64,000 nt of DNA from a phage, in the sequence record PZ445428.1; one strand, 5' to 3'. The notes under the pieces were generated by a model. It made no database searches and was not told the DNA's origin. It saw nothing but the letters and a program-made list of their open reading frames with translations. Of this stretch, positions 633-63,507 are shown one piece after another. Position numbers and translations under genes: made by a program. The first letter of the stretch is position 1; every line of letters begins with the position of its first letter.

Positions 633-804
633 ACAGTTTGTCCTCCAGTTCCATAATACGATTTTCATAGGAAGCACGCAGCTTCTCGATGGATAAAGCA
701 CGAACCGTAACCTCATCTGAGTTAATCGCCAGTTGAGCGAGGTCTTCCGTTTCCATGCGGCCATTGTAAATTAAGCGATATTTAAGATGTTTTACGTTTT
801 TCAT
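601..804 (-). CDS. hypothetical protein (67 aa)
   Basis: ORF track; AAGGAAG RBS upstream of ATG. Confidence 0.45.
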   Translation of the reverse strand: MKNVKHLKYRLIYNGRMETEDLAQLAINSDEVTVRALSIEKLRASYENRIMELEDKLYGILESEATK

Positions 805-813
805 TCTTCTTCC

Positions 814-1095
814 TTAGTTCTGTACTGTAAATGCGTTTTTATCGGCATGAGCATTATAAGGATCATTCATGCGATAGATTTTCACAGCTTTAGTAGACCC
901 TTTTGATTCTTCATAATCAATCCAGAGCCACTTGTCTTTGCCTACATAATGTACCCGAAATTTCTTAACTTTCTTATCGTTCCACGTTGCTACAACTCTA
1001 CGATAATCAAAGCCACCTAACCAATCAAGAGCCTTACGTTCTTCACTAGGCTCTCCCAAATGTGAAACGTCCACTTTAGGAAGCAATTCGCTCAT
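814..1095 (-). CDS. hypothetical protein (93 aa)
   Basis: ORF track; GAGAGGAG RBS upstream of ATG. Confidence 0.5.
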   Translation of the reverse strand: MSELLPKVDVSHLGEPSEERKALDWLGGFDYRRVVATWNDKKVKKFRVHYVGKDKWLWIDYEESKGSTKAVKIYRMNDPYNAHADKNAFTVQN

Positions 1096-1149
1096 AGCTT
1101 TCTCCTCTCAAATTTATAAATCTATTATACACAAATTTTTAGCTGAAAG

Positions 1150-32637: not shown

Positions 32638-33006
32638 ATGAAAGCATATCAAAGTCTTAAATCCGGCGTAATTAACCTTGTTCATGACAATCAGATCATT
32701 CAGCTATACTCTAAAGACGGCGAACTTAAACAGAAAGTTCTAGTTGAAGATCTAGAAGGTATCACACCTCACTTTGATCCTGAAGCCTTCCGCATCGTGG
32801 ATGTTAAAGTAGTTCCTCAAGTCGAGGGTGGTCAACACCTAAATGTCAACGTATTAAGTCGTGATCAGCTTTTGGATGCTCAGAAACATCCTGAAAAATA
32901 TCCTCAGTTGACCATTCGTGTCTCTGGTTATGCTGTTCGATTTAATGCACTGACGCGTGAACAACAGAACGACGTTATTAGTCGTACATTTACTCAGGCG
33001 ATCTAA
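32638..33006 (+). CDS. grcA: autonomous glycyl-radical cofactor (GrcA/YfiD-like)
   Basis: 122-aa ORF ending [11 protein letters not shown]...[36 protein letters not shown], nearly collinear with E. coli YfiD glycyl-radical domain (RVSGY motif). Confidence 0.8.
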
Positions 33007-33087
33007 TGGGGTTTGGATACGATTTCTCCCAGCTACGCAAGGTAGTCGAGCAAACTCCATTTATCTCCGAAGTTTTAGGAGAACTTA

Positions 33088-33387
33088 GTGGACAGAGCAT
33101 TAAGACGTCACCACCGTCAACGTGTCAAGAACAATCGCAAGAAGTATTGGACAGTCTTCCCTCATGAAGAAAGTCCTAAACGGTTAGGTATTATTACTAC
33201 CACTCCTTGTATTTGCTCTTGCTGGATGTGTGGCAACCCACGCAAATACTATAAAAATAGTAAAGCAGCAATGAAAATCTCGGAGATTAAAAAGATGGAT
33301 TCAGGATATAATGAAATCACGTTTACAGGTGGTATCTCTGATGAGTTCGATGGTTTTGTATCACAAGACGTTATCGAAATTATCTAA
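33088..33387 (+). CDS. hypothetical basic Cys-rich protein (99 aa), GTG start
   Basis: ORF track; AGGAG RBS. Confidence 0.45.
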   Translation: MDRALRRHHRQRVKNNRKKYWTVFPHEESPKRLGIITTTPCICSCWMCGNPRKYYKNSKAAMKISEIKKMDSGYNEITFTGGISDEFDGFVSQDVIEII

Positions 33388-33396
33388 TTAAATAAC

Positions 33397-33432
33397 AAAC
33401 CCCGGCTATTGAATAAGTAGTTGGGGTTTTCT
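33397..33432 (+). terminator. rho-independent terminator
   Basis: AAACCCCGGCTA...TAGTTGGGGTTT hairpin followed by TTCTTAT. Confidence 0.5.
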
Positions 33433-33453
33433 TATATACACAGGATTTTCAAA

Positions 33454-33639
33454 ATGAAAATTTTTAAAGTGAACTACCGTGGACTATGGTTAGGTGGTAC
33501 AGCTATTGTTGTTGCGGAAACTGCGGAAAAAGCAATCGAACTGGCTAGAAACCATAGATCTTCTATAGAGTTTGAAGGTGTGACAGTAGAAGAACTCCCT
33601 AGCAGTGGGGTAGTATACAACGATAACGGGAATTACTGA
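33454..33639 (+). CDS. hypothetical protein (61 aa)
   Basis: ORF track 33421..33639 trimmed to ATG downstream of terminator. Confidence 0.45.
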   Translation: MKIFKVNYRGLWLGGTAIVVAETAEKAIELARNHRSSIEFEGVTVEELPSSGVVYNDNGNY

Positions 33640-33696
33640 TGTTATATTTTAAAGTTCGACCACATTAAGTTAATTCACAGACTTAATGGAGAAAAT

Positions 33697-34092
33697 ATGA
33701 GCCGTACTTATCGCAAACAATCTGGAAATCATTACTGGCGTGACAAACATCGTTGCACTTATAACTTCCACAGCACTAATGTGCGTATTCCCTATGTTTA
33801 CACAGATCGTGAAGGTAAACAGTGGAAATACTACAAAGTTCGCTCTAATGAAGCATGGGCTATGTCTTGGGATGAAGTTGATGCAGAAATTCAGGAAGGC
33901 ATCCTGAATAACGAAAAGAAAGATGGTCACTGGTGGGATTCTATCAACCAGAGTGTTAAATGGCACTCTAACAAAATGGTTCGACAGGGAAATCGCCGTG
34001 AGTTACATCGTGTAATGAAAGATCCAGAAAATTACGACTACAATCGAGATCACGACCTTCGTAAGAAAGGCATCTGGTGGATCTACGACTAA
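33697..34092 (+). CDS. hypothetical Trp/His-rich protein (131 aa)
   Basis: ORF track. Confidence 0.55.
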   Translation: MSRTYRKQSGNHYWRDKHRCTYNFHSTNVRIPYVYTDREGKQWKYYKVRSNEAWAMSWDEVDAEIQEGILNNEKKDGHWWDSINQSVKWHSNKMVRQGNRRELHRVMKDPENYDYNRDHDLRKKGIWWIYD

Positions 34093-34109
34093 TTTCGTAA
34101 ATAATTCAT

Positions 34110-34138
34110 TTGCTAAAACCCTCTCCTTTTGATATAAT
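34110..34138 (+). promoter_or_regulatory. early promoter cassette (-35 TTGCTA, -10 TATAAT)
   Basis: Hexamers with 17-bp spacer. Confidence 0.6.
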
Positions 34139-34168
34139 ATTTATATAAATTGATGAGAGGGCTTTGAA

Positions 34169-34441
34169 ATGAAAGAAGCAGAAATTAATGAAATGGCTAG
34201 GGTTTTCGTAGTTTCCTATATGCAAGGTAGCTGCAATAGTCTTTTCGATTCAGCAGTAGTATTTCAGGAAGAATTAGCTGAGAAAGGTATACATATGGAA
34301 GATACTGAAATTGAGGATCTTCTGATGGAAGCTGCAAGTAGTGCAGAAGTATTCTTGTGTGATAATTGTGGTTGGTGGTGTCCTGAGCATGACCGTTCTG
34401 AAGAAGGCTCTTACTGTTCTGACTGTGAGGGAGAAGAATAA
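34169..34441 (+). CDS. hypothetical acidic Cys-cluster protein (90 aa)
   Basis: ORF track; CDNCGWWCPEH...CSDCEG. Confidence 0.5.
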   Translation: MKEAEINEMARVFVVSYMQGSCNSLFDSAVVFQEELAEKGIHMEDTEIEDLLMEAASSAEVFLCDNCGWWCPEHDRSEEGSYCSDCEGEE

Positions 34442-34737
34442 TGAATAAGTTTACTATTGCACTGATGATTTCCGCAGTTAGTTTCAGTTCTCTGGCATCC
34501 ACCAAAGTTTCTATGAAAAATGGTAATGTTAAAGTTCAGCAGAACGGCATTACCACTGAGTATGGTAAAGTCAGATTAGTAAAGGAGCGTAATGGTAATA
34601 TAGAAATTATGACCAATAAAAACTTCTCTACTCCAGCTATTACCATTCAGCGTAACGGTAATATTACTACCCAACGTTCCAACAATTCTGACTCGTTTAC
34701 TTGTCGTTATGATTGTGGTGTGGAAGTAGAAGAATGA
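34441..34737 (+). CDS. secreted small protein (signal peptide)
   Basis: ORF track; N-terminal MNKFTIALMISAVSFSSLAS. Confidence 0.5.
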   Translation: MNKFTIALMISAVSFSSLASTKVSMKNGNVKVQQNGITTEYGKVRLVKERNGNIEIMTNKNFSTPAITIQRNGNITTQRSNNSDSFTCRYDCGVEVEE

Positions 34738-35261
34738 TTACTCAAGAAAGGTTAAAAGAACTGCTAGAGTATAATCCTGAGACAGGACAATTTACTAATA
34801 AAATCCTAAGAGGTAGACTAAAGGTAGGTGCATTTGCAGGCACGTTAAGGTCTGATGGGTATATCCAAATAAGGCTTGATAAAAAAGCATATTATGCACA
34901 ACAACTAGCTTTCCTATATATGACAGGTATACTTCCAGAGGAAGTTGATCACATTAATAGGATTAGGTCGGATAACAGATGGGTTAATCTTAGAGAATCT
35001 AACAGACAAGAAAATAGTAGAAATCGTAAATCCACTAGTAACTCTGGATACTTAGGTGTGTCTTGGAATACAAAGGCACAGAAATGGCAAGTAATGGTGC
35101 GAAATTCCACGGGAAATAATATATTTGGTGGTTATTTTAACTATGAAGATTTAGATTATGCCGTTGCTAAAGCTAATGGATTACGACTAGAATTGCATGG
35201 AACTCTAGCAGTTATCGAAGAGTTTAGCGGTTTTCCACAAGAAAGAGAGAGAAGAACGTGA
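34734..35261 (+). CDS. HNH homing endonuclease (second copy)
   Basis: ORF track 34713..35261, start moved to ATG 34734; HNH core EVDHINRIRSDNRWVNLR plus AP2-like GYLGVSWNTKAQKWQ. Confidence 0.7.
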   Translation: MITQERLKELLEYNPETGQFTNKILRGRLKVGAFAGTLRSDGYIQIRLDKKAYYAQQLAFLYMTGILPEEVDHINRIRSDNRWVNLRESNRQENSRNRKSTSNSGYLGVSWNTKAQKWQVMVRNSTGNNIFGGYFNYEDLDYAVAKANGLRLELHGTLAVIEEFSGFPQERERRT

Positions 35262-35551
35262 AAGAAATAAACTTAAACAGTTACGCGAGGATTCTAGCGA
35301 CGGAACCAGTTCTGGAGTTCCTTCGTAAAGAACATACTGAATTCTGGCAAGAGTACAGCTTTGAGCATGGTTCAGAAGCAGCCGCAGCCTTTGCTAGAAA
35401 AAGAATTGACGAGTATGTTGACCCAGTAATTACTGATGGATTTATCAAGATGCCCCTTTGGGATCTGATGCAAAAATTCGGTGACACAATGGTAATGGGA
35501 CGAGTTCCTTACTTCACTGAAATCTACTTTGACGAAAAGGATATTAAATGA
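35258..35551 (+). CDS. hypothetical protein (97 aa), GTG start
   Basis: ORF track. Confidence 0.45.
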   Translation: MKEINLNSYARILATEPVLEFLRKEHTEFWQEYSFEHGSEAAAAFARKRIDEYVDPVITDGFIKMPLWDLMQKFGDTMVMGRVPYFTEIYFDEKDIK

Positions 35552-35832
35552 TTGTTTCTCCGTTTGCTCTTTGGTTTATTATTGGTGCAGTCGTTGCGAT
35601 TTACAGCTGTGTTGACGATGTGTTCTTCTCGAAAAACAAGGCTGTATTGTTAGAGCATATGCGGCGAACTTCCTCAGATATCTTAACCTTCTTTGGTGAG
35701 GAAAAGGCATACAAGATCGCTCTAGCAATATTTATTATATTTGACACATTATTCGGGCCGGTAGCTCTCTACGGATTCTATCGTAAAACCCGCAAGATGA
35801 AACAACTCAAAGCTGAATACTTTGGGAAGTAA
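35548..35832 (+). CDS. small membrane protein (94 aa)
   Basis: ORF track. Confidence 0.5.
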   Translation: MIVSPFALWFIIGAVVAIYSCVDDVFFSKNKAVLLEHMRRTSSDILTFFGEEKAYKIALAIFIIFDTLFGPVALYGFYRKTRKMKQLKAEYFGK

Positions 35833-35949
35833 AGAACTCGCGTAGGACCGAGTTAGTGTCACCTACTAACGTTACGGAGGGGAGTCGTGCCCCCGACAGG
35901 CAAAAGTGGTGAGTTGGTCGCTGACCTCAATTTTAACTTAGGAGCTAAC

Positions 35950-36294
35950 ATGACTTTTCTTTTAATTATTCTTGTTGCATGGCTGTTGATCGGAGCTGGT
36001 TATGCAATTGCACTTACTCGTCATCTTGATGAATACTCCGCTGAGTGGTTTGTAAAGTATCTACGACTAGACGATAAAGCTGAATCTTTTTCTAGTGAAG
36101 ATGAACGAAAAGCTGTTATGGAAATGACCCCGAAGCAATGTTTACGTTACATGCGTGTTGTTGGCTTCTTTGGTCTATTATTCCTTGGGCCGATTGGTAC
36201 TACAATCGCCCCGTACAAAGAAACAGTTGCCGACATCAAACTATGGAGAACTGCTGGATCGCTACGTCGTGCTAGAGAATTGAGTACCAAATAA
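35950..36294 (+). CDS. membrane protein (114 aa)
   Basis: ORF track 35887..36294, start moved to ATG after AGGAG. Confidence 0.5.
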   Translation: MTFLLIILVAWLLIGAGYAIALTRHLDEYSAEWFVKYLRLDDKAESFSSEDERKAVMEMTPKQCLRYMRVVGFFGLLFLGPIGTTIAPYKETVADIKLWRTAGSLRRARELSTK

Positions 36295-36335
36295 GATTGA
36301 TCTCAAATCAACTTACTAGCAAAACAATAATGACA

Positions 36336-36370
36336 AAGCCCAGCCTGCACTTTTGCGACTGGGCTATTTT
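36336..36370 (+). terminator. rho-independent terminator
   Basis: AGCCCAG...CTGGGCT hairpin followed by TTTTT. Confidence 0.6.
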
Positions 36371-36386
36371 TGTAATAAAATTTCAG

Positions 36387-36415
36387 TTGCGTAGATGCCC
36401 AAAGTCTTGTATAAT
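36387..36415 (+). promoter_or_regulatory. early promoter cassette (-35 TTGCGT, -10 TATAAT)
   Basis: Hexamers with 17-bp spacer. Confidence 0.55.
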
Positions 36416-36446
36416 ATGTTTATAGATTGAGGCAAAAGGATAATTT

Positions 36447-37145
36447 ATGAGAATCATTTCAAAGTTTAATGATGTTTATGATTTACAGAACAGTTTATTT
36501 GACCCCGACCGTGTTTGGGAACGTAAATCAGACGAGATTCTGGTAAAAGTAACTGAAGATGTAGAAAAGAACATCGTTCATGATCGCCAAGTATTTCAAG
36601 AAGGCTCTATGTCCTTCCGCGGTGACTTCGAGTATCATGTAAATCCACTATTCGTTGCAGGTGAAGTGTACTGGTTACATGGGTTATACTGCTGGCATCC
36701 AAAATTCAGCTTCAAAACGTTTAATCTCGATGCAGTGTTCGACAAAATGGAAGAAATGGGATTACACGCTCGCTCTTACTTACTAGACAAAAGTCGTGGT
36801 GATGTTCGAGAATCCATGCGAGATATGCTGATTGAGGCAAAACCAAAAGCAGAACGTATCTTATCTGAGCTGAGAGTACCGATTGCGTATGTGAAGGGTA
36901 TTAAGAAGAACGACAACGATGATATTCGTAACTTCGTTATTCAGACCAACATTCGTTTCCATCAGTCAGGTATTCCGTGGCAGGAAATTGAAAGTAACTT
37001 ATATCGTTTACACCAAGTTCTCGAACAGTATATCTTCGGAGTGCTAGGAACTGGTGAGCCTGATATGATCACCGTATCAGATAAAGACAGGTTAGCAGCT
37101 CATGGTTTCGATACAAAAACTTCTTTCAGGAATATGGCAAGGTAA
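36447..37145 (+). CDS. hypothetical protein (232 aa)
   Basis: ORF track. Confidence 0.55.
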   Translation: MRIISKFNDVYDLQNSLFDPDRVWERKSDEILVKVTEDVEKNIVHDRQVFQEGSMSFRGDFEYHVNPLFVAGEVYWLHGLYCWHPKFSFKTFNLDAVFDKMEEMGLHARSYLLDKSRGDVRESMRDMLIEAKPKAERILSELRVPIAYVKGIKKNDNDDIRNFVIQTNIRFHQSGIPWQEIESNLYRLHQVLEQYIFGVLGTGEPDMITVSDKDRLAAHGFDTKTSFRNMAR

Positions 37146-37551
37146 GTGGTATATTCTGGGAGCTGGACTAGCGATAGGCATCGGATTTGGTGCTTATCAT
37201 CTAGTAAATAAGGTAGAGACTTTAGCAGGAGATCTAGCGGTAGCTACTAAAAAGATCTCAACTCTAGAAACTTCCTTAAACAAGGTGAAAGCAGAGAGTG
37301 AACAGCGTGAAACACGCATGAATCAATACTTCACTTTCCACAACATTTCACAACAAGATCTTGATAAAAAGATCGCCCAGCTTGATAAAGCTCTTAGTCG
37401 TCAAGACATTATAGCTGCAAAGCCTGGACTGGTAACATTAATAGCTAAAAAGCAGAGTAAAGAGTTCGAGGAAAGATTAGCATGTTTAACTGGAAACTTG
37501 GAATACTGCTCGCAGCCGCAATCACCGTCACAGGCTGCGCAGAAACGGTAG
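37102..37551 (+). CDS. membrane-anchored coiled-coil protein (i-spanin-like?)
   Basis: ORF track; N-terminal TM then coiled-coil; overlaps downstream lipoprotein gene. Confidence 0.3.
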   Translation: MVSIQKLLSGIWQGKWYILGAGLAIGIGFGAYHLVNKVETLAGDLAVATKKISTLETSLNKVKAESEQRETRMNQYFTFHNISQQDLDKKIAQLDKALSRQDIIAAKPGLVTLIAKKQSKEFEERLACLTGNLEYCSQPQSPSQAAQKR

Positions 37552-37835
37552 TACCAGAGCCGTCACATGAGTTAAAGCAAGCCCATGTGGATTGGCCTAA
37601 AGGACTTCAGCCTTGTAGCTTTGATTTCAAATTCGAAAAGAAACTAGCTACAAATGGTGAAGATGGCGTAGTAGTTGTTGTACCGTATAAAGATTGGAAT
37701 ATGTTAGCGAAATGTCGTGAGGCAGAATTTTCGTATATTTCAAGACTGACTAGTATGGTTTGCTTCTACCGCCAAGATTTACAAGAACAACGTTGCTTAG
37801 TTTACTATCCACCCATTACAAATAGGAAAGATTAA
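37482..37835 (+). CDS. lipoprotein (o-spanin-like?)
   Basis: ORF track; lipobox ...AITVTGC; embedded in 3' end of preceding ORF in another frame. Confidence 0.4.
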   Translation: MFNWKLGILLAAAITVTGCAETVVPEPSHELKQAHVDWPKGLQPCSFDFKFEKKLATNGEDGVVVVVPYKDWNMLAKCREAEFSYISRLTSMVCFYRQDLQEQRCLVYYPPITNRKD

Positions 37836-38581
37836 TGTCAGTATTAGTCGGTTTACATGGTGAGGCTGGTGCGGGGAAAGATACCGTAGCAAAATTGATG
37901 TTAGAATGGTGCAATGATACGTTCCCAACGTATTTAGCCCGCCAATACAGTTTTGCTAAACCCGTTTACGAACTTGCATCCGTAATCCTCGGGGTAACTC
38001 CAGAGTTTCTGGGAGAGCGCAGGGGAAAAGAGGTTAGTCAATGGTTTAATGTGACTCAATCTCAATTGGAGCGAGCTAGGGATGTGTGGTTTAAATACGG
38101 AATCGACAAATATGAAGACTTCTCGTACGTTTGGCCGATTTTTGAAGGAAAATACCTTGATCCTCAGCAGCTTATCAGTCAGGAGGAAGCACTATATAGT
38201 GTATTTATCTCCCCAAGAAAGATGCTACAGCTTGTAGGTACTGAGTTAGGAAGGCAGCTGGTGCATGAACGCATTTGGCTCATAATTCTGGAGCAATCCA
38301 TCGCTAAAGACGACCCAGACGTCGCCGTAGTAACAGATGTGAGATTCCCTAATGAAGGAGAGTTGATCAGAGAAACAAATCGTCTAGATATGGATTCTCT
38401 GTTAGTAAATGTCGTACCCGCGGAACGTGAATATACTATAAAGACAAACCATCCGTCAGAAAATGGTATTCCCGTTAAATACATTACTCACGAATTTGTT
38501 AATACATTCGAGGGTATGCACAACCTTAAACTAGAAGTAAATAACTTCTGTGACTTAGAGCTAGAACCACTAGTTGGATAA
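37835..38581 (+). CDS. dnk: deoxynucleoside monophosphate kinase
   Basis: N-terminal P-loop GLHGEAGAGKDT resembles phage dNMP kinases. Confidence 0.6.
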   Translation: MSVLVGLHGEAGAGKDTVAKLMLEWCNDTFPTYLARQYSFAKPVYELASVILGVTPEFLGERRGKEVSQWFNVTQSQLERARDVWFKYGIDKYEDFSYVWPIFEGKYLDPQQLISQEEALYSVFISPRKMLQLVGTELGRQLVHERIWLIILEQSIAKDDPDVAVVTDVRFPNEGELIRETNRLDMDSLLVNVVPAEREYTIKTNHPSENGIPVKYITHEFVNTFEGMHNLKLEVNNFCDLELEPLVG

Positions 38582-38594
38582 TTAAAGGATCACT

Positions 38595-39194
38595 ATGACT
38601 AATAAGAAAGAAGAGAAGACTAACCTGTTTCACACTGTTCGCCAATCTAACGAATATACCTTTTTCTTTGACGAAGAATTAGGTTCACCAGATGAGTATC
38701 GTGATCTTTCAATGATACTGATGCAGGCTGGTGAAGAAGATGAAATTAATCTGATGATTAATGGGCCTGGTGGTTATGTTGATACTGCTGCACAGCTATC
38801 TAACCTGATTGCCAACTGTCGTGGAACGGTTATTGGACACCTGCTCGGTCCTAGTGCCTCTGCTTACTGCACAATCTTCCTGTCTTGCCACGGTTGGGTT
38901 GTACATCCACATGCTACGCTTATGGGACATACGTTCTCTGGCGGATTCTGTGAGAAAGGTCAAGAAATCAAGAAAGCCTATGAATCTTACAACCAGTTCG
39001 TAGAAGATATGATGCTCGATGTTTACTTCCCGTTCTTCTCCATCGATGAAATCGAGGATATGGTAAAAGAGAATAAAAATATCTATCTCGACAGCAAAGA
39101 AATCAATAAGCGTATTGAAGTATTGGCGAACTATCGCAAAGAGCAGTACAGTAAAGCTCAATGCCCTCATCCAGAAGAACATGGAGAAGTGTAA
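38595..39194 (+). CDS. ClpP-like serine peptidase (putative)
   Basis: INGPGGYVDTAAQLSNLI resembles ClpP INSPGG... segment. Confidence 0.4.
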   Translation: MTNKKEEKTNLFHTVRQSNEYTFFFDEELGSPDEYRDLSMILMQAGEEDEINLMINGPGGYVDTAAQLSNLIANCRGTVIGHLLGPSASAYCTIFLSCHGWVVHPHATLMGHTFSGGFCEKGQEIKKAYESYNQFVEDMMLDVYFPFFSIDEIEDMVKENKNIYLDSKEINKRIEVLANYRKEQYSKAQCPHPEEHGEV

Positions 39195-39203
39195 GTAATT
39201 TTA

Positions 39204-39235
39204 AGCCAGAGTTTAACGACTCTGGCTTTTCTTTT
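39204..39235 (+). terminator. rho-independent terminator
   Basis: AAGCCAGAGT-ttaacg-ACTCTGGCTT followed by TTCTTTT. Confidence 0.6.
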
Positions 39236-39297
39236 GCCTAAAATTCTTCTTGACAACGATAAAAAATTGTGCTCCAGAAGTGAACTTTAAAAACACG

Positions 39298-39326
39298 TTG
39301 TAATTTTCCTCTAGACTTAGTATAAT
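39298..39326 (+). promoter_or_regulatory. promoter (-35 TTGTAA, -10 TATAAT) for lysis genes
   Basis: Hexamers with 17-bp spacer; additional TTGACA at about 39250. Confidence 0.45.
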
Positions 39327-39350
39327 GGTAATGGTTAGAGGAGGTTACAA

Positions 39351-40007
39351 GTGGAAAAGTTTCTACAACTATTAACGGTACTGCTCCAAGAAGCGAAAGA
39401 TCCAGCTTCGCTTCTAAAACGTCTGCTAACTATCTTAGTTGCTGTCATTATTTTCTTATTTGTTAGTAATACTAGCGAGGTGATGTCATTTTTAAAGACT
39501 TTCTCCACGTCTGCGGTTTTACAGGATGTTCAAACCCAAAGGATCGATAACTTTCCTAATATAGCTCGAGAAAAGAGTATGGTGCTTTTCTCGCAAACGG
39601 GTGCGGATGCTGTTTTTGTAGTCAAGTATAAACCCGATGCTATTAATGATTATTCCAACATTATCGCATGGGAGAGCAATGCGCAATTAGATAGGGCTGA
39701 CTTGGCCGATAAAGCAGTAAATAAGACGTCTGAAATGTATAGACGTCACCTGGAAGGCTTTAACTACGCTTCGGACTTAACTGTAAAGATTAATAAATAT
39801 ATGGGGGCAAATATCCCTACGTTTAAGAACGTTACATTTAATTATATTTACACGTGTCCGTATTTCAACCTGAATAATATCTACGCTGGATATGTAGGTA
39901 TTGCATGGAAGGATAAACCCGTAGATACAGCTGACTCGGAACAATTTAACGAGTACTTAACAAAGCTTTGCTCACCGCAGCAAAGATCATTAGGTAGATC
40001 TATATGA
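39351..40007 (+). CDS. putative holin / membrane protein
   Basis: GTG start after AGAGGAGG; N-terminal TM segment; immediately upstream of, and overlapping, the endolysin gene. Confidence 0.45.
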   Translation: MEKFLQLLTVLLQEAKDPASLLKRLLTILVAVIIFLFVSNTSEVMSFLKTFSTSAVLQDVQTQRIDNFPNIAREKSMVLFSQTGADAVFVVKYKPDAINDYSNIIAWESNAQLDRADLADKAVNKTSEMYRRHLEGFNYASDLTVKINKYMGANIPTFKNVTFNYIYTCPYFNLNNIYAGYVGIAWKDKPVDTADSEQFNEYLTKLCSPQQRSLGRSI

Positions 40008-40417
40008 GTTTTAAATTTGGTAAAAATAGCGAAAAACAACTTGCTACTGTAAAACCCGAGCTACAAAAGGTAGCTCGGAGAGCATTAGAACTGTCTCCTT
40101 ACGATTTTACTATCGTTCAAGGGATTCGTACTGTTGCTCAAAGTGCCCAAAACATTGCTAATGGCACATCATTCCTCAAAGATCCTAGTAAGAGTAAACA
40201 CGTTACTGGAGATGCAATCGATTTTGCACCATATATTAATGGTAAGATTGATTGGAACGATCTTGAGGCATTTTGGGCTGTTAAGAAGGCTTTCGAACAA
40301 GCTGGAAAAGAATTGGGCGTGAAACTTCGTTTCGGGGCTGACTGGAATGCATCTAACGATTATCGTGATGAAATTCAACGTGGTACCTACGACGGTGGTC
40401 ATGTAGAATTGGTTTAA
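40004..40417 (+). CDS. lys: endolysin, L-alanyl-D-glutamate peptidase (M15-like)
   Basis: 137-aa ORF; sequence and length as expected for T5-type endolysin; Zn-ligand-like H/D residues. Confidence 0.7.
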   Translation: MSFKFGKNSEKQLATVKPELQKVARRALELSPYDFTIVQGIRTVAQSAQNIANGTSFLKDPSKSKHVTGDAIDFAPYINGKIDWNDLEAFWAVKKAFEQAGKELGVKLRFGADWNASNDYRDEIQRGTYDGGHVELV

Positions 40418-40428
40418 ATAGTAAGGTA

Positions 40429-40452
40429 AGGCGGGGTTCTCCCGCCTTTTAA
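40429..40452 (+). terminator. rho-independent terminator after endolysin
   Basis: AGGCGGGG-ttct-CCCGCCTT followed by TTTT. Confidence 0.6.
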
Positions 40453-40492
40453 AGCAAAGGGGGCTTTAATAACTTAATGATAGGAGAAAGCC

Positions 40493-40909
40493 ATGTTTGC
40501 AGAACTATTCACAATGACGCTATTAGGTATCTGGAAAATAAGTCTGATAGTGTTCGTCTTAATGATAATTTTAACTATAGTCGCACTAGTCACCCAAAAT
40601 GACCTACTAAAAAGAGTCATCCAAGGGCTAGAGTATATAATTATGGGCACATTCGGTGTTTGCAAATGTAAATGCCAGAGGAATACGAAATATTGTTGGT
40701 TATGGATGGAATTAGAAAGCTGTCTATCTGTCGCCTTGGCTGTCTCATTCGGTATGATTCTTATGGCCCTTACTCTAGCACTGATACCATTAATGCTGGC
40801 TGGGGGAGTCACGGCTTATTTCACTCTTTTCTCCCCTATACTTATGTATTCAATCTACCCAATCACTATGTTCTTAGTGAGGAAGAGATTCCCGCATATT
40901 GCACATTAA
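40493..40909 (+). CDS. membrane protein (138 aa)
   Basis: ORF track; TAGGAGAAAG RBS; four hydrophobic segments. Confidence 0.5.
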   Translation: MFAELFTMTLLGIWKISLIVFVLMIILTIVALVTQNDLLKRVIQGLEYIIMGTFGVCKCKCQRNTKYCWLWMELESCLSVALAVSFGMILMALTLALIPLMLAGGVTAYFTLFSPILMYSIYPITMFLVRKRFPHIAH

Positions 40910-40922
40910 GATAAAAAAGTAA

Positions 40923-40951
40923 TTGACTTCCTGCTTAAATTTTTATATAAT
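40923..40951 (+). promoter_or_regulatory. early promoter cassette (-35 TTGACT, -10 TATAAT)
   Basis: Hexamers with 17-bp spacer. Confidence 0.6.
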
Positions 40952-40982
40952 ATATGTATAAATTGAATCAGAGGAGTTCACT

Positions 40983-41393
40983 ATGTCAGATCGTTTCTAT
41001 ACTCAGATGGCCAACCATTACAATATGGCTCCGTATGAATTGAACATCGCATTACGTGACCTCGATTCACCAGAGCGTCAGAAACTTGAGAAAAAGGCGG
41101 GAATTCGTATGTCTAGCAAGGGCAAAAAACTTACTCGTATTGACTTAAATACTATGCTAATGGAAGAGCTTGGCAGAAACATTGAAGGTCAAAAACTGCC
41201 TCTCAATGTGTTAGAATTGATGCTGGATAAAGTCAAGAAGAAAACTTATAAGAAAGTAGAAGTACCAGAAGGCAGGCTAAAAGCCCCTTATCAGGCTGCT
41301 GTATCCGAGTGCTTGGGAGCTACTTTAGATATGAGCACTGCGACTGTTAAAGTAATGAAGGCATTTTTGGAGGCCATTAATAAACATGAGTAA
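40983..41393 (+). CDS. hypothetical protein (136 aa)
   Basis: ORF track. Confidence 0.55.
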   Translation: MSDRFYTQMANHYNMAPYELNIALRDLDSPERQKLEKKAGIRMSSKGKKLTRIDLNTMLMEELGRNIEGQKLPLNVLELMLDKVKKKTYKKVEVPEGRLKAPYQAAVSECLGATLDMSTATVKVMKAFLEAINKHE

Positions 41394-41676
41394 ATTAGTA
41401 TATCTGTTAAAGGGATCTACCTGCAATCCGTGCAAACTTTTCGAGCCTGTGTTCGATAAAGTAGTGGATGAATACAGTTTGGAAGTCCATAAGGAAACTG
41501 ATAATACTGAGCTAATGCAGAAGTTTGGTGTACGCCAAGTTCCTGTTGTGGTTCTAGCAGATCGTCTCCCGAACGGTCGTATTGAGGCTAATCATATTAT
41601 GGTTGGTCGTCAGCTTCGTAAAGAAACTATGCACGAGGCTATCAAAACATTCCTGGAAGATAATCCAGAAGATTAA
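41386..41676 (+). CDS. thioredoxin-like protein
   Basis: CNPC active-site-like CxxC and VRQVPVVVL cis-Pro region. Confidence 0.5.
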   Translation: MSKLVYLLKGSTCNPCKLFEPVFDKVVDEYSLEVHKETDNTELMQKFGVRQVPVVVLADRLPNGRIEANHIMVGRQLRKETMHEAIKTFLEDNPED

Positions 41677-41683
41677 TAATTCA

Positions 41684-41713
41684 ACCCAGATCTTAGCTGA
41701 TCTGGGTTTTTTA
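41684..41713 (+). terminator. rho-independent terminator
   Basis: ACCCAGATC-ttagct-GATCTGGGT followed by TTTTTTATT. Confidence 0.65.
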
Positions 41714-41717
41714 TTAG

Positions 41718-41746
41718 TTGCTAAACGCTAAAATTTTTGATATAAT
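41718..41746 (+). promoter_or_regulatory. early promoter cassette (-35 TTGCTA, -10 TATAAT)
   Basis: Hexamers with 17-bp spacer. Confidence 0.6.
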
Positions 41747-41780
41747 ATACATATAAATTGATGAGAGGAGTATCAAATAA

Positions 41781-42161
41781 ATGAATTACGCTTACTTAAT
41801 AATCCATAATAACGTAGTTTGTGGTACTCGCGCTGTCGAAATGGGTATCACAGAAGAAAAGTATAACTCTTTGTCTGAATCGGAGCAAGAATACTATGTC
41901 GAACAAGCTGCTTGGGAATATGCTGAAGCTTATCCCGAAGAACGTGAAGGCCGCGTTACTATTGTTGTGTCTTTGGGCTTGGTTGGCTGTGATACCGAAG
42001 TTGATACAGATTTAGAAACGCTTGAAGAATGGGAAGAGCTAGATATTGGCGAACAAAACGCTATTATCAAAACATCTTTCTGGGAAGCAGTAGACTGCCA
42101 TGTAGTCTTTGAGCCTAACGATAACGAAGCTGAAAAGCACACTAATTGGATGACTCGATAA
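41781..42161 (+). CDS. hypothetical acidic protein (126 aa)
   Basis: ORF track. Confidence 0.5.
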   Translation: MNYAYLIIHNNVVCGTRAVEMGITEEKYNSLSESEQEYYVEQAAWEYAEAYPEEREGRVTIVVSLGLVGCDTEVDTDLETLEEWEELDIGEQNAIIKTSFWEAVDCHVVFEPNDNEAEKHTNWMTR

Positions 42162-61384: not shown

Positions 61385-61651
61385 TTACAAGTATCCAGAT
61401 TGTTCGAGATTAAATTTACAATCACCGTATTTTAAATCGAATTGTGATAAGTCCCACCAACCAAATTTAGTACGCATCTGTACTTTAGGGAAACGATATC
61501 CTACTTCACGAACATCTCGGATTGTTAAGCTATAGTGACCCGACCCTGCTGCCCACGAAGTTTTCACATATGAAGTACAGAATGGTTTCGGTTGTGGTGC
61601 ACAGCCAGATAATAGTGTTATAGTAGCTAAAGCGATTAGTAACTTTTTCAT
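61385..61651 (-). CDS. llp: lipoprotein, Llp-like (putative lytic-conversion / receptor-blocking lipoprotein)
   Basis: ORF track 61385..61669 trimmed to ATG (MKKLLIALATITLLSGC...); lipobox LLSGC; divergent from adjacent receptor-binding protein gene as in T5 llp-oad. Confidence 0.5.
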   Translation of the reverse strand: MKKLLIALATITLLSGCAPQPKPFCTSYVKTSWAAGSGHYSLTIRDVREVGYRFPKVQMRTKFGWWDLSQFDLKYGDCKFNLEQSGYL

Positions 61652-61734: not shown

Positions 61735-63507
61735 ATGGGTTTTTTCGCAGGAAAGTTTAGTGATGGTAAAACAGTATTATCACTAACAAACAATAATGGT
61801 GGAGACACCAATGAACATTACAGTCCTGGTGGTAATACAATATTTCACTCTGATATGCCCTTCGTTCTAGTAGACGGGACATATGAGGCTGCTCTAGGTA
61901 ACGCCGGTAATGGGTATTTTGTTTGTGCGATGCCTTCTGATATCATTAATATGAAGTCTAATGATCCTGGTAGAGTAATCCTTACTGCTATTGAGATTAA
62001 TGGTACGCATAGGGGGTTCCTCAATGGTACACAATCGCAAGTAGGTCAGTATCTTACTTTTGCAGAAGAGCCATCACGCGCATTTGCTGCTGTTGGATTA
62101 AGTTCAGCTTTTGCTATTGGGGATAGTTTGGCTAGTGGTACATATATATACAATAGTTTAATAGGTCATGAAGAATCTATAGCGCGTCAAGGTACTGGTG
62201 GTACACTAATTCAGGGTTCTGATTTTGGTATAGTAAGGCCAGGTGGATTTGTACCTGCAGGTGAAGCTATTGCAGGGGCTTATGATTTACTAGGCTTCCC
62301 CAAAGGGTCTAGTACTGTACCTTTGGATGGTGGAAATGCTAAATACTGGGATCCGAACTGGTATAACCCTATTGGGTCTGCTGGTAGGGGGCATAATCAT
62401 TTTTATGTGTGTAGCTCTAACATTCGTAGCTACATCGGAAAGAAAAGAGAAGTTCCTGCGAATACTAACGTATTCTATAACCCTAGTACTCTAGTTTACG
62501 CATGTAGGGGATCCGCTAGTAACATGGCTAGTCAGTCTGTTAACACCGTTTATGTTCAGGATTGGTATAATATTACTCCGACCAAAGTTATTTGGTATGT
62601 ACTGAATCTACGTTATTCAAATGGTAATATGGGAGTTTCTGGAACTCCCTTTACTGGTTCTGATATACTTATTTCCCCCTCTAATTTTACTATTAAAGGT
62701 GTTAGTCTCCCTAACACAGGATATAAGTTCATTAACCAGAATGCTTTTGGGAACTTGGGTTATCGTCCTGACATGGAGTACGTGGGTAATAATGCTGCGT
62801 ATACTGGAGTTTTTGGCGATACAACCGCTAGATGTGAGTTCATTGGCTCTAATAATGGTAGTCTATGGTCCCCTGTAAACTACGGAGGTGCTGCCTCCCA
62901 GATTAGTATATACAAGTTTAATGCGGGTAAACAGTGGTACGTAGATACTAATACTAACTCTATTGGCAACGAACATGGGGCTGTGTGGAGTCCAAGTACA
63001 GTTCCTCTCAGATTATTTCCAAATAACGTGGCTAGTACGTATGTTGGGGATGATATTACTCCTTCGTACCCAGGTACTGGAGATTACTATCTTCCTCTAT
63101 CAACTGTTTGGTTGGGGCTACCTAATGCCCATTCTACTATCATCCTAACTACTGAAGTTATTATGGGTAATATTAATACTGCCGGACAACCAATACGTAC
63201 GTATGGTGGTAGTGCTTGGCAGGTACAGGGTAGGCGTCAACAGAGCTATACTGCGGGTGATGGAGTATTCCACCAAATATTGACTTTGCCACCTGGTTAC
63301 TTAGTACCTTATCATGGAACTTCTTCTTATAGCTATTGGCAATTATGGGGTAGTAGACCAGATATGGAATTCCGTAGAAACGGATATATCTACACAGTAA
63401 AGAACCTGGGTAATGGTAATGTCGAGTTCGGTGTAATTATACATGCTGGATCTCAGGCTGCTATATTCCTACCAAGACTACGTGTAACTGCACAGCGCCT
63501 GACCTAA
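61735..63507 (+). CDS. receptor-binding tail protein (pb5/Oad/Hrs-like)
   Basis: 590-aa Gly/Asn/Ser/Thr/Tyr-rich ORF next to llp-like gene; GGAGATTGT RBS. Confidence 0.55.

What the first reader, a model, noticed from the sequence alone, without database searches (positions are those of the whole stretch)
37102..37835. Overlapping membrane-anchored coiled-coil protein and embedded lipoprotein (spanin-like pair) 1.5 kb upstream of holin/endolysin
The second ORF (lipobox VTGC) starts inside the 3' end of the first in another frame, the hallmark arrangement of Rz/Rz1 spanins, yet the pair is separated from the holin-endolysin cassette by dNMP kinase and ClpP-like genes.
Basis: inference. Interest (0 to 1): 0.35.

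Follow-up and report, generated by a model that had tools for sequence, protein, structure and literature searches.

The report
Known T5-type overlapped spanin gene pair
These two overlapping genes are the already annotated inner-membrane and outer-membrane spanin subunits of a T5-like coliphage, the proteins that break the host outer membrane at the end of lysis, and their position apart from the holin and endolysin genes is normal for this phage family.

Summary
The window around the finding is 100% identical to Escherichia phage TrudiGerster (MZ501108, Epseptimavirus, Demerecviridae). In that record the same two ORFs, with the same ends, are annotated i-spanin (bas27_0152) and o-spanin (bas27_0153).

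- **i-spanin:** 37102..37551, 149 aa, one N-terminal transmembrane helix followed by a helical segment with heptad periodicity.
- **o-spanin:** 37482..37835, 117 aa, signal peptide with lipobox VTGC.
- **Overlap:** the o-spanin starts 70 nt inside the i-spanin in another frame. This is the "overlapped" architecture, not "embedded".

The proteins are 84% and 91% identical to T5.045 and T5.044. Kongari et al. 2018 catalogued this "T5 family" of spanins with the same 70-bp overlap. Both proteins match the PHROG families that contain the experimentally validated T4 spanins PseT.3 and PseT.2. The two cysteines essential in T4 PseT.2 are conserved here.

The order spanins, dNMP kinase, Clp-like protease, terminator, promoter, holin, endolysin is the same in T5, Klebsiella phage Spivey and Serratia phage Slocum. 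I found no direct experiment on a T5-family spanin. Interest is low.

The parts
37102..37551 (+). i-spanin gene (149 aa), the inner-membrane subunit. Short N-terminal cytoplasmic stretch, one TMD, helical periplasmic domain with heptad periodicity, two periplasmic Cys (C128, C136).
   Evidence: ORF. Identical to bas27_0152 'i-spanin'. phrog_739 at 3.5e-37. 84% identical to T5.045. Helix 23-79. Heptad test.
37150..37206 (+). Transmembrane helix of the i-spanin (residues 17-35, YILGAGLAIGIGFGAYHLV).
   Evidence: Kyte-Doolittle maximum 1.55 over 19 residues. Invariant between the window and T5.
37482..37835 (+). o-spanin gene (117 aa precursor, 99 aa mature), an outer-membrane lipoprotein with four periplasmic Cys (C45, C78, C94, C105).
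   Evidence: ORF. Identical to bas27_0153 'o-spanin'. phrog_812 at 8.4e-29. 91% identical to T5.044. C19, C94 and C105 are invariant across T5-like and T4-like relatives.
37482..37538 (+). Lipoprotein signal peptide of the o-spanin (MFNWKLGILLAAAITVTGC). The lipobox VTGC is at 37527..37538. Cys19 is the lipidated residue and Ala at +2 suggests outer-membrane sorting.
   Evidence: Sequence and regular-expression match. Cys19 is invariant in alignment A3.
37482..37551 (+). 70-nt overlap. It encodes the i-spanin C-terminal 23 residues and, in another frame, the o-spanin signal peptide.
   Evidence: Coordinates. The same 70-bp overlap is reported for T5, EPS7, SPC35 and DT57C in PMC6139136.
37468..37472 (+). 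GAGGA Shine-Dalgarno sequence, 9 nt upstream of the o-spanin ATG and inside the i-spanin coding sequence.
   Evidence: Read from the sequence.
36353..36381 (+). Promoter-like site upstream of the 232-aa ORF (36447..37145) that precedes the spanins. Probable start of the transcription unit that carries the spanins. Inferred.
   Evidence: Consensus scan, 9 of 12 matches. T5 has an annotated promoter at the equivalent place upstream of T5.047.
39203..39228 (+). Intrinsic terminator-like hairpin after the Clp-like protease gene. Probable end of the unit that carries the spanins, dNMP kinase and protease.
   Evidence: 11-bp stem followed by a T run. Annotated terminators at the same position in T5, Spivey and Slocum.
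39298..39326 (+). Promoter-like site of the separate holin-endolysin operon.
   Evidence: 10 of 12 matches. T5 has an annotated promoter upstream of its holin.
39351..40007 (+). T-type (class III) holin, the first step of the lysis pathway that the spanins complete.
   Evidence: Pfam Phage_holin_T at 5e-114 and phrog_860. Annotated holin.
40004..40417 (+). Endolysin (M15-type peptidase). Its degradation of the cell wall is thought to free the spanin complex to act.
   Evidence: phrog_465 at 2.4e-54 and Pfam Peptidase_M15_4. Annotated endolysin.

Best explanation
This is the two-component spanin of a T5-like phage (Escherichia phage TrudiGerster, Epseptimavirus).

The 149-aa i-spanin is anchored in the inner membrane by one N-terminal helix and extends a mostly helical domain with heptad periodicity into the periplasm. 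The 117-aa o-spanin is made as a prolipoprotein. It would be lipidated at Cys19, cleaved by signal peptidase II and sorted to the inner leaflet of the outer membrane. The two subunits are expected to bind through their C-terminal regions and form a disulfide-stabilised bridge across the periplasm, threaded through the peptidoglycan.

The T-type holin permeabilises the inner membrane and the M15 endolysin destroys the wall. The complexes are then free to move and oligomerise. In the model developed for lambda and T4, they fuse inner and outer membranes, removing the last barrier to virion release.

The pair seems to be transcribed with the dNMP kinase and Clp-like protease genes in a unit separate from the holin-endolysin operon. 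This is harmless because spanins stay inert until the wall is gone.

Shown here: gene structure, targeting signals, purifying selection in both frames, family membership and conserved synteny. Inferred from homologues: lipidation, complex formation, disulfides, membrane fusion and timing.
For: - The window is 100% identical to MZ501108, where the same ORFs are annotated i-spanin and o-spanin.
- PHROG matches are phrog_739 at 3.5e-37 and phrog_812 at 8.4e-29. T4 PseT.3 and PseT.2 hit the same families at 1.3e-37 and 5e-42.
- T4 pseT.3/pseT.2 complement lambda RzamRz1am, and PseT.2 C87 and C98 are essential (PMC6139136).
- Those cysteines align with C94 and C105 here and are invariant across six T5-like and T4-like sequences, as is the lipobox Cys.
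- The KPGL motif of the i-spanin is conserved from T4 to T5-like phages.
- Identity to T5.045 and T5.044 is 84% and 91%.
- The published catalogue lists T5, EPS7, SPC35 and DT57C as overlapped spanins with a 70-bp overlap, lengths of 147-149 aa (i-spanin) and 117 aa (o-spanin), and one predicted coiled coil at about residues 33-75.
- TMD, lipobox and Shine-Dalgarno sequence are present. Helix and heptad periodicity are supported.
- The wobble-position bias switches at the frame boundary.
- Synteny with the holin-endolysin operon 1.5 kb downstream holds in T5, Spivey and Slocum.
Against: - I found no direct experiment on a T5-family spanin. A full-text search for T5 spanin terms returned only the bioinformatic catalogue.
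- Function is therefore transferred from T4 homologues that are only 20-24% identical.
- There is no Pfam or NCBIfam family match and no solved structure.
- The single-sequence o-spanin model was too poor to use, with pLDDT 42.
- Lipoprotein processing and topology were judged from sequence rules, not from a dedicated predictor.
- The promoter and terminator assignments rest on consensus scans that found no more sites than shuffled sequence, plus annotations in related records.
Confidence: 0.93

Rival explanations
1. The lipoprotein is a superinfection-exclusion or receptor-blocking lipoprotein, like T5 Llp or phage Cor, and not an o-spanin. On this view the upstream membrane protein is unrelated.
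For: T5-like phages do encode small outer-membrane lipoproteins with that role (Llp, cited in PMC4342426). A lipobox alone does not separate the two functions.
Against: - The window has a separate Cor/Llp-type lipoprotein at 61385..61651 (-), beside the receptor-binding protein gene (phrog_1119 at 1.6e-21).
- The ORF at 37482 matches only the spanin family phrog_812, which contains T4 PseT.2.
- It keeps the cysteine pair that is essential in PseT.2.
- It is always paired with an i-spanin homologue, even when a homing endonuclease is inserted between the two genes in phiR201.
Confidence: 0.02
2. The second ORF is a chance overlapping reading frame and only the first is a real gene.
For: Many relatives annotate only one of the two genes. 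In oldekolle, for example, the stretch under the o-spanin carries no annotated CDS.
Against: - The ORF is intact at 117 aa in T5, HildyBeyeler and oldekolle, and tblastn finds it in 541 phage records.
- Substitutions downstream of the i-spanin stop fall on its third codon positions (21-27 of 35-39).
- It has a good Shine-Dalgarno sequence.
- It has homologues at 38-45% identity in Klebsiella and Serratia phages, and in T4.
- Missing o-spanin calls are a documented annotation artefact: 196 of 528 systems in PMC6139136.
Confidence: 0.01
3. The pair is a real membrane-protein and lipoprotein complex, but its main role is not lysis. It might act in envelope remodelling or DNA-transfer steps early in infection, because it is co-transcribed with nucleotide-metabolism and protease genes and not with holin and endolysin.
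For: The spanins appear to sit in a transcription unit bounded by a promoter-like site at 36353 and a terminator at 39203, separate from the holin-endolysin operon. No T5-family spanin has been tested experimentally.
Against: T4 homologues also lie far from t and e, yet they function as spanins. Every defining spanin feature is present (see membership test). Spanins are inert until the wall is degraded, which is established knowledge from the lambda system, so location and timing are not constrained.
Confidence: 0.04

Closest known systems
Phage T5 spanins T5.045 (i-spanin) and T5.044 (o-spanin), the 'T5 family' of Kongari et al. 2018, which includes EPS7, SPC35, Stitch, DT57C, AKFV33 and FFH1
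   Same: - 84% and 91% protein identity.
- The same 70-nt overlap. The i-spanin is 147 aa in T5 and 149 aa here and in EPS7; the o-spanin is 117 aa in all.
- Lipobox ITGC in T5 against VTGC here.
- The same neighbours: dnk, Clp-like protease, terminator, promoter, holin, endolysin.
- The ribosome-binding region upstream of the EPS7 i-spanin is nearly identical to the one in the window.
   Different: - T5 has the HNH endonuclease hegF between the upstream 232-aa gene and the i-spanin. In the window that gene is absent, and the i-spanin start overlaps the upstream ORF by 44 nt.
- The first ~16 residues of the i-spanin and about ten residues of the o-spanin differ.
Phage T4 PseT.3 / PseT.2 spanins (experimentally validated)
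   Same: - The same PHROG families, 739 and 812.
- Pairwise BLASTP E-values of 1e-4 and 5e-7.
- The conserved KPGLV motif in the i-spanin.
- The conserved C-terminal motif of the o-spanin, M-x-C-x-Y-R-x-x-L-x-E-x-x-C, which contains the two essential cysteines.
- Both pairs lie away from the holin and endolysin genes.
   Different: - Only 20-24% identity.
- The T4 genes count as 'separated' (4-nt overlap), whereas these overlap by 70 nt.
- The T4 i-spanin has no cysteines; this one has two near its C-terminus.
- This o-spanin has two extra cysteines (C45, C78) and is longer.
Phage lambda Rz / Rz1 (prototype two-component spanin)
   Same: The same predicted topology and presumed mechanism: a type II inner-membrane protein with a helical periplasmic domain, plus an outer-membrane lipoprotein encoded out of frame within its 3' part, with periplasmic cysteines.
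   Different: - No detectable sequence homology; no Pfam family matches either protein.
- Lambda Rz1 is fully embedded within Rz and is small and proline-rich, with 40 mature residues. Here the gene is overlapped and the mature o-spanin is 99 residues, with strands predicted in a low-confidence model.
- Lambda's spanin genes are the last genes of its lysis cassette.
Phage P2 LysB / LysC (prototype of the 'overlapped' architecture)
   Same: The same genetic architecture: the o-spanin starts inside the 3' end of the i-spanin gene and runs beyond it (PMC6139136).
   Different: P2 is named in PMC6139136 only as the example of this architecture. I did not compare the sequences here.

Membership tests
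Two-component spanin (functional class, criteria of Summer 2007 / Kongari 2018) | i-spanin: a small protein with one N-terminal transmembrane domain and the rest predicted to be periplasmic | tested here: met
   One hydrophobic stretch at residues 17-35 (KD 1.55) and no other. It is invariant against T5. Orientation (N-in, C-out) was not tested with a topology predictor.
Two-component spanin (functional class, criteria of Summer 2007 / Kongari 2018) | i-spanin periplasmic domain is alpha-helical or coiled-coil | tested here: met
   AlphaFold helix at 23-79, with ten-residue block means of pLDDT 78-93 over residues 41-80. Heptad a/d hydrophobicity is 10 of 12, reached by 6 of 5000 shuffles. The catalogue predicts one coiled coil at residues 33-75 for the EPS7 orthologue.
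Two-component spanin (functional class, criteria of Summer 2007 / Kongari 2018) | o-spanin: an N-terminal signal peptide ending in a lipobox Cys, with a residue after the Cys that allows outer-membrane sorting | tested here: met
   MFNWKLGILLAAAITVTG|C fits [LVI][ASTVI][GAS]C, with Ala at +2. The Cys is invariant in six relatives. LipoP and SignalP were not available, and lipidation itself cannot be tested here.
Two-component spanin (functional class, criteria of Summer 2007 / Kongari 2018) | The two genes are adjacent, in an embedded, overlapped or separated arrangement | tested here: met
   70-nt overlap, with the o-spanin running 284 nt past the i-spanin stop. This is the overlapped arrangement.
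Two-component spanin (functional class, criteria of Summer 2007 / Kongari 2018) | Periplasmic cysteines available for intermolecular disulfides (present in 507 of 528 systems) | tested here: met
   The i-spanin has C128 and C136. The o-spanin has C45, C78, C94 and C105. The statistics come from PMC6139136.
Two-component spanin (functional class, criteria of Summer 2007 / Kongari 2018) | Required for outer-membrane disruption, or able to complement lambda RzamRz1am | not testable with these tools
   This needs genetics. It has been shown for T4 homologues only. No T5-family experiment was found.
T4 PseT.3 / PseT.2 sequence family (PHROG 739 / 812), including the T5 subfamily | Significant profile match of both proteins to the family models | tested here: met
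   phrog_739 at 3.5e-37 and phrog_812 at 8.4e-29. T4 PseT.3 and PseT.2 match the same models.
T4 PseT.3 / PseT.2 sequence family (PHROG 739 / 812), including the T5 subfamily | Conserved C-terminal cysteine pair of the o-spanin (T4 C87 and C98, both essential) | tested here: met
   C94 and C105 align with T4 C87 and C98 and are invariant in alignment A3. Their essentiality in T4 is from PMC6139136.
Lambda Rz / Rz1 sequence families and embedded architecture | Sequence match to the Pfam families of lambda Rz and Rz1 | tested here: not met
   Neither protein matches any Pfam family at E <= 0.01.
Lambda Rz / Rz1 sequence families and embedded architecture | o-spanin gene lies wholly inside the i-spanin gene | tested here: not met
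   The o-spanin ends at 37835 and the i-spanin at 37551.
Llp / Cor superinfection-exclusion lipoproteins | Profile match to the Cor/Llp family and a position next to the receptor-binding protein gene | tested here: not met
   The ORF at 37482 matches only phrog_812. The Cor-like lipoprotein of this phage is a different gene, at 61385..61651.

The most novel reading that the evidence does not exclude
The spanins of Demerecviridae sit in a conserved transcription unit with dNMP kinase and a Clp-like protease, separate from the holin-endolysin operon. This could mean they are made early and held in check, or processed, by something other than the cell wall, for example the adjacent Clp-like protease. 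It could also mean the unusually large four-cysteine o-spanin has a second role in the envelope. Nothing in the data points to either idea. They are simply not excluded, because no T5-family spanin has been studied experimentally.
Probability: 0.04. Interest if true: 0.35.

Novelty: already known. Interest (0 to 1): 0.05.

Why it matters
It matters little beyond correct annotation. The pair is the standard outer-membrane-disruption module of T5-like phages. It is already annotated in the source genome and catalogued in the spanin literature. The check has two small uses. It confirms that a sequence-only reader can recognise an overlapped spanin pair. It also shows again that o-spanins are often left unannotated in related phage records, which affects automated lysis-gene inventories for therapeutic T5-like phages. 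The T5-family spanins have still not been tested experimentally.

Tried and rejected
- **Pfam and NCBIfam scans of both proteins.** Pfam found nothing. NCBIfam gave only sub-threshold coiled-coil noise, such as FtsL at 20 bits against a cut-off of 50. These libraries have no model for this spanin family.
- **PDB sequence search.** Only chance hits with E > 0.5, so there is no solved relative.
- **Single-sequence AlphaFold model of the o-spanin.** Mean pLDDT was 42, so I did not use it or run a fold search.
- **Literature search for experiments on T5 spanins.** It returned only the bioinformatic catalogue. The T5 holin/endolysin operon paper (PMID 38926173, cited in PMC12894885) is not held in the library.
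- **First guess at the T4 pseT coordinates.** It was wrong. The correct region was fetched.
- **Apparent end of the i-spanin at residue 136.** tblastn alignments with relatives stop there. This is not a real difference: T5, oldekolle and HildyBeyeler all continue with ...SQPQSQSQAVHKK. The low-complexity tail is probably masked.
- **Rejected readings.** A chance ORF, an Llp/Cor-type exclusion lipoprotein, and membership of lambda Rz/Rz1 (see rivals and membership test).

Full report
**What is there**

The window carries two ORFs at the stated coordinates.

- ORF1 is 37102..37551 (+) and encodes 149 aa. It has a single strongly hydrophobic stretch at residues 17-35 (YILGAGLAIGIGFGAYHLV), followed by a charged domain.
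- A single-sequence AlphaFold model places residues 23-79 in one continuous helix. Ten-residue block means of pLDDT are 84, 93, 93 and 78 over residues 41-80.
- Residues 36-79 have hydrophobic residues at 10 of 12 a/d heptad positions. Only 6 of 5000 shuffles reach that value.
- ORF2 is 37482..37835 (+) and encodes 117 aa. It begins MFNWKLGILLAAAITVTGC, a basic residue followed by a hydrophobic core and the lipobox VTGC, with Ala after the Cys.
- A GAGGA Shine-Dalgarno sequence lies 9 nt upstream of the ORF2 ATG.
- ORF2 starts 70 nt before the ORF1 stop, in another frame, and runs 284 nt beyond it.
- The holin gene starts 1515 nt downstream of ORF2. dNMP kinase and Clp-like protease genes lie between.

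The only correction is that the arrangement is 'overlapped', not 'embedded'.

**Is it more than chance?**

Yes, on three grounds.

- A simple lipoprotein-signal rule was applied to all 894 start/ORF combinations of at least 50 aa in the window. It picks out only this ORF and one other locus, a Cor/Llp-like gene at 61385..61651.
- In nucleotide alignments with T5, HildyBeyeler and oldekolle, substitutions in the i-spanin-only part fall on the third codon position of the i-spanin frame (41/55, 38/52, 26/31).
- In the o-spanin-only part they fall on the third position of the o-spanin frame (27/39, 21/35, 24/36).

The wobble bias switches frame where the coding frame is proposed to switch. Both ORFs are therefore real genes under purifying selection.

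**Identity of the sequence**

Window 33000..41900 is 100% identical to Escherichia phage TrudiGerster (MZ501108; locus tags bas27; Epseptimavirus, Markadamsvirinae, Demerecviridae). In that record bas27_0152 (87763..88212) is annotated 'i-spanin' and bas27_0153 (88143..88496) 'o-spanin'. These map exactly onto 37102..37551 and 37482..37835. The neighbours are annotated dNMP kinase, Clp-like protease, holin and endolysin.

**Family**

- The two proteins match PHROG 739 (3.5e-37) and PHROG 812 (8.4e-29), both 'Rz-like spanin'.
- They are 84% and 91% identical to T5.045 and T5.044.
- tblastn finds both genes in about 540 phage records. Almost all are T5-like phages of Salmonella, Escherichia, Klebsiella, Shigella, Serratia and other hosts.
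- Kongari et al. 2018 (PMC6139136) define a 'T5 family' of spanins (EPS7, Stitch, SPC35, AKFV33, FFH1, DT57C, T5). They state that the T5 spanins overlap by 70 bp.
- Their supplementary tables list EPS7, the type phage of this genus, with a 149-aa i-spanin, a 117-aa o-spanin, a 70-nt overlap and one predicted coiled coil at residues 33-75.
- The same paper notes that Shivani and phiR201 have the pair split by a homing endonuclease. I confirmed this for phiR201.

**Link to experimentally tested spanins**

T4 PseT.3 and PseT.2 hit the same PHROG models at 1.3e-37 and 5e-42. They align pairwise with the window proteins at E = 1e-4 and 5e-7.

I aligned six sequences: the window, T5, Klebsiella phage Spivey, Serratia phage Slocum, Aeromonas phage AS-szw and T4.

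- The o-spanin alignment keeps the lipobox Cys invariant. It also keeps the C-terminal motif C-x-Y-R-x-x-L-x-E-x-x-C.
- The i-spanin alignment keeps the K-P-x-L motif.

The two cysteines in the o-spanin motif correspond to T4 PseT.2 C87 and C98. PMC6139136 reports that T4 pseT.3/pseT.2 complement a lambda RzamRz1am lysis defect, and that both cysteines are essential. By contrast, no Pfam family matches either protein. The pair is therefore a functional and architectural analogue of lambda Rz/Rz1, not a detectable sequence relative.

**The 'odd' position**

The order is: 232-aa conserved ORF, i-spanin, o-spanin, dNMP kinase, Clp-like protease, terminator, promoter, holin, endolysin. The same order is annotated in T5, Klebsiella phage Spivey (Sugarlandvirus) and Serratia phage Slocum.

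In the window the scan finds three matching signals:

- a terminator-like hairpin at 39203..39228;
- a promoter-like site at 39298..39326, before the holin;
- a promoter-like site at 36353..36381, before the 232-aa ORF.

The scan as a whole found no more sites than shuffled sequence, so these assignments rest mainly on agreement with the T5, Spivey and Slocum annotations. Separation of the spanins from the holin-endolysin operon is therefore a conserved, already documented trait of the family. It also parallels T4, where the spanin genes lie far from t and e.

**Mechanism**

Shown here:

- two real genes with the correct targeting signals;
- membership of the PseT.3/PseT.2 spanin family;
- conserved cysteines;
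- a conserved neighbourhood next to a T-type holin (Pfam Phage_holin_T at 5e-114) and an M15 endolysin.

Inferred from the lambda and T4 systems:

- The i-spanin sits in the inner membrane and the o-spanin is lipidated and sorted to the outer membrane.
- Their C-terminal regions bind, giving a disulfide-linked bridge held within the peptidoglycan mesh.
- After holin triggering and endolysin action, the complexes are freed and fuse the two membranes.

**Rivals**

- An Llp/Cor-type exclusion lipoprotein is unlikely. That function is covered by a different gene next to the receptor-binding protein.
- A chance ORF is excluded by the selection pattern.
- A non-lysis role cannot be formally excluded, because no T5-family spanin has been tested. 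Nothing supports it.

**Verdict**

The finding is a correct reading of an already annotated and catalogued feature. Novelty: already known. Interest: low.

Noticed in passing
window 61385..61651 (-), next to 61735..63507 (+): This is the only other lipoprotein-signal ORF in the window (MKKLLIALATITLLSGC...). It matches phrog_1119, 'Cor superinfection exclusion protein' (1.6e-21). It lies divergently next to the 590-aa receptor-binding tail protein (phrog_4815). This is the expected position of the T5 Llp-type lytic-conversion lipoprotein.
   Followed up: partly
window 36447..37145 (+) against 37102; L002 4246..4743 (T5 hegF): The i-spanin start overlaps the 3' end of the conserved 232-aa upstream ORF (phrog_4243, unknown function) by 44 nt. 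In T5 the HNH endonuclease hegF lies between these two genes. The first ~16 residues of the i-spanin differ accordingly.
   Followed up: partly
L010 2043..3440 (Yersinia phage phiR201): In phiR201 a ~700-bp endonuclease gene lies between the i-spanin and the o-spanin, turning the overlapped pair into a separated one. Kongari et al. 2018 reported this.
   Followed up: yes
L008 (Salmonella phage oldekolle) about 783..1136, and many other hits: The o-spanin ORF is intact (117 aa, lipobox ITGC) but not annotated in oldekolle. In many other T5-like records it is labelled 'hypothetical protein', or only one spanin is annotated. This is a systematic annotation gap.
   Followed up: partly
window 40493..40909 (+): A 138-aa hydrophobic ORF lies directly downstream of the endolysin. 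It is the homologue of T5.039, annotated 'contains four transmembrane domains', and matches phrog_5944 of unknown function. Its position beside the lysis operon makes it a possible candidate for a lysis-related membrane protein.
   Followed up: no
window 34713..35261 (+): This ORF is annotated in TrudiGerster as a putative homing endonuclease (bas27_0147). It is one of several mobile endonucleases scattered through this early region in T5-like phages.
   Followed up: no
Hits H56, H88, H65, H104: Short records (1.7-6.3 kb) named 'Listeria phage LM 4-11-1', 'Listeria phage LM 4-14-1' and similar carry T5-like spanin genes at 86-91% identity. A spanin pair makes no sense in a phage of a Gram-positive host. 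These are probably mislabelled or contaminant contigs.
   Followed up: no
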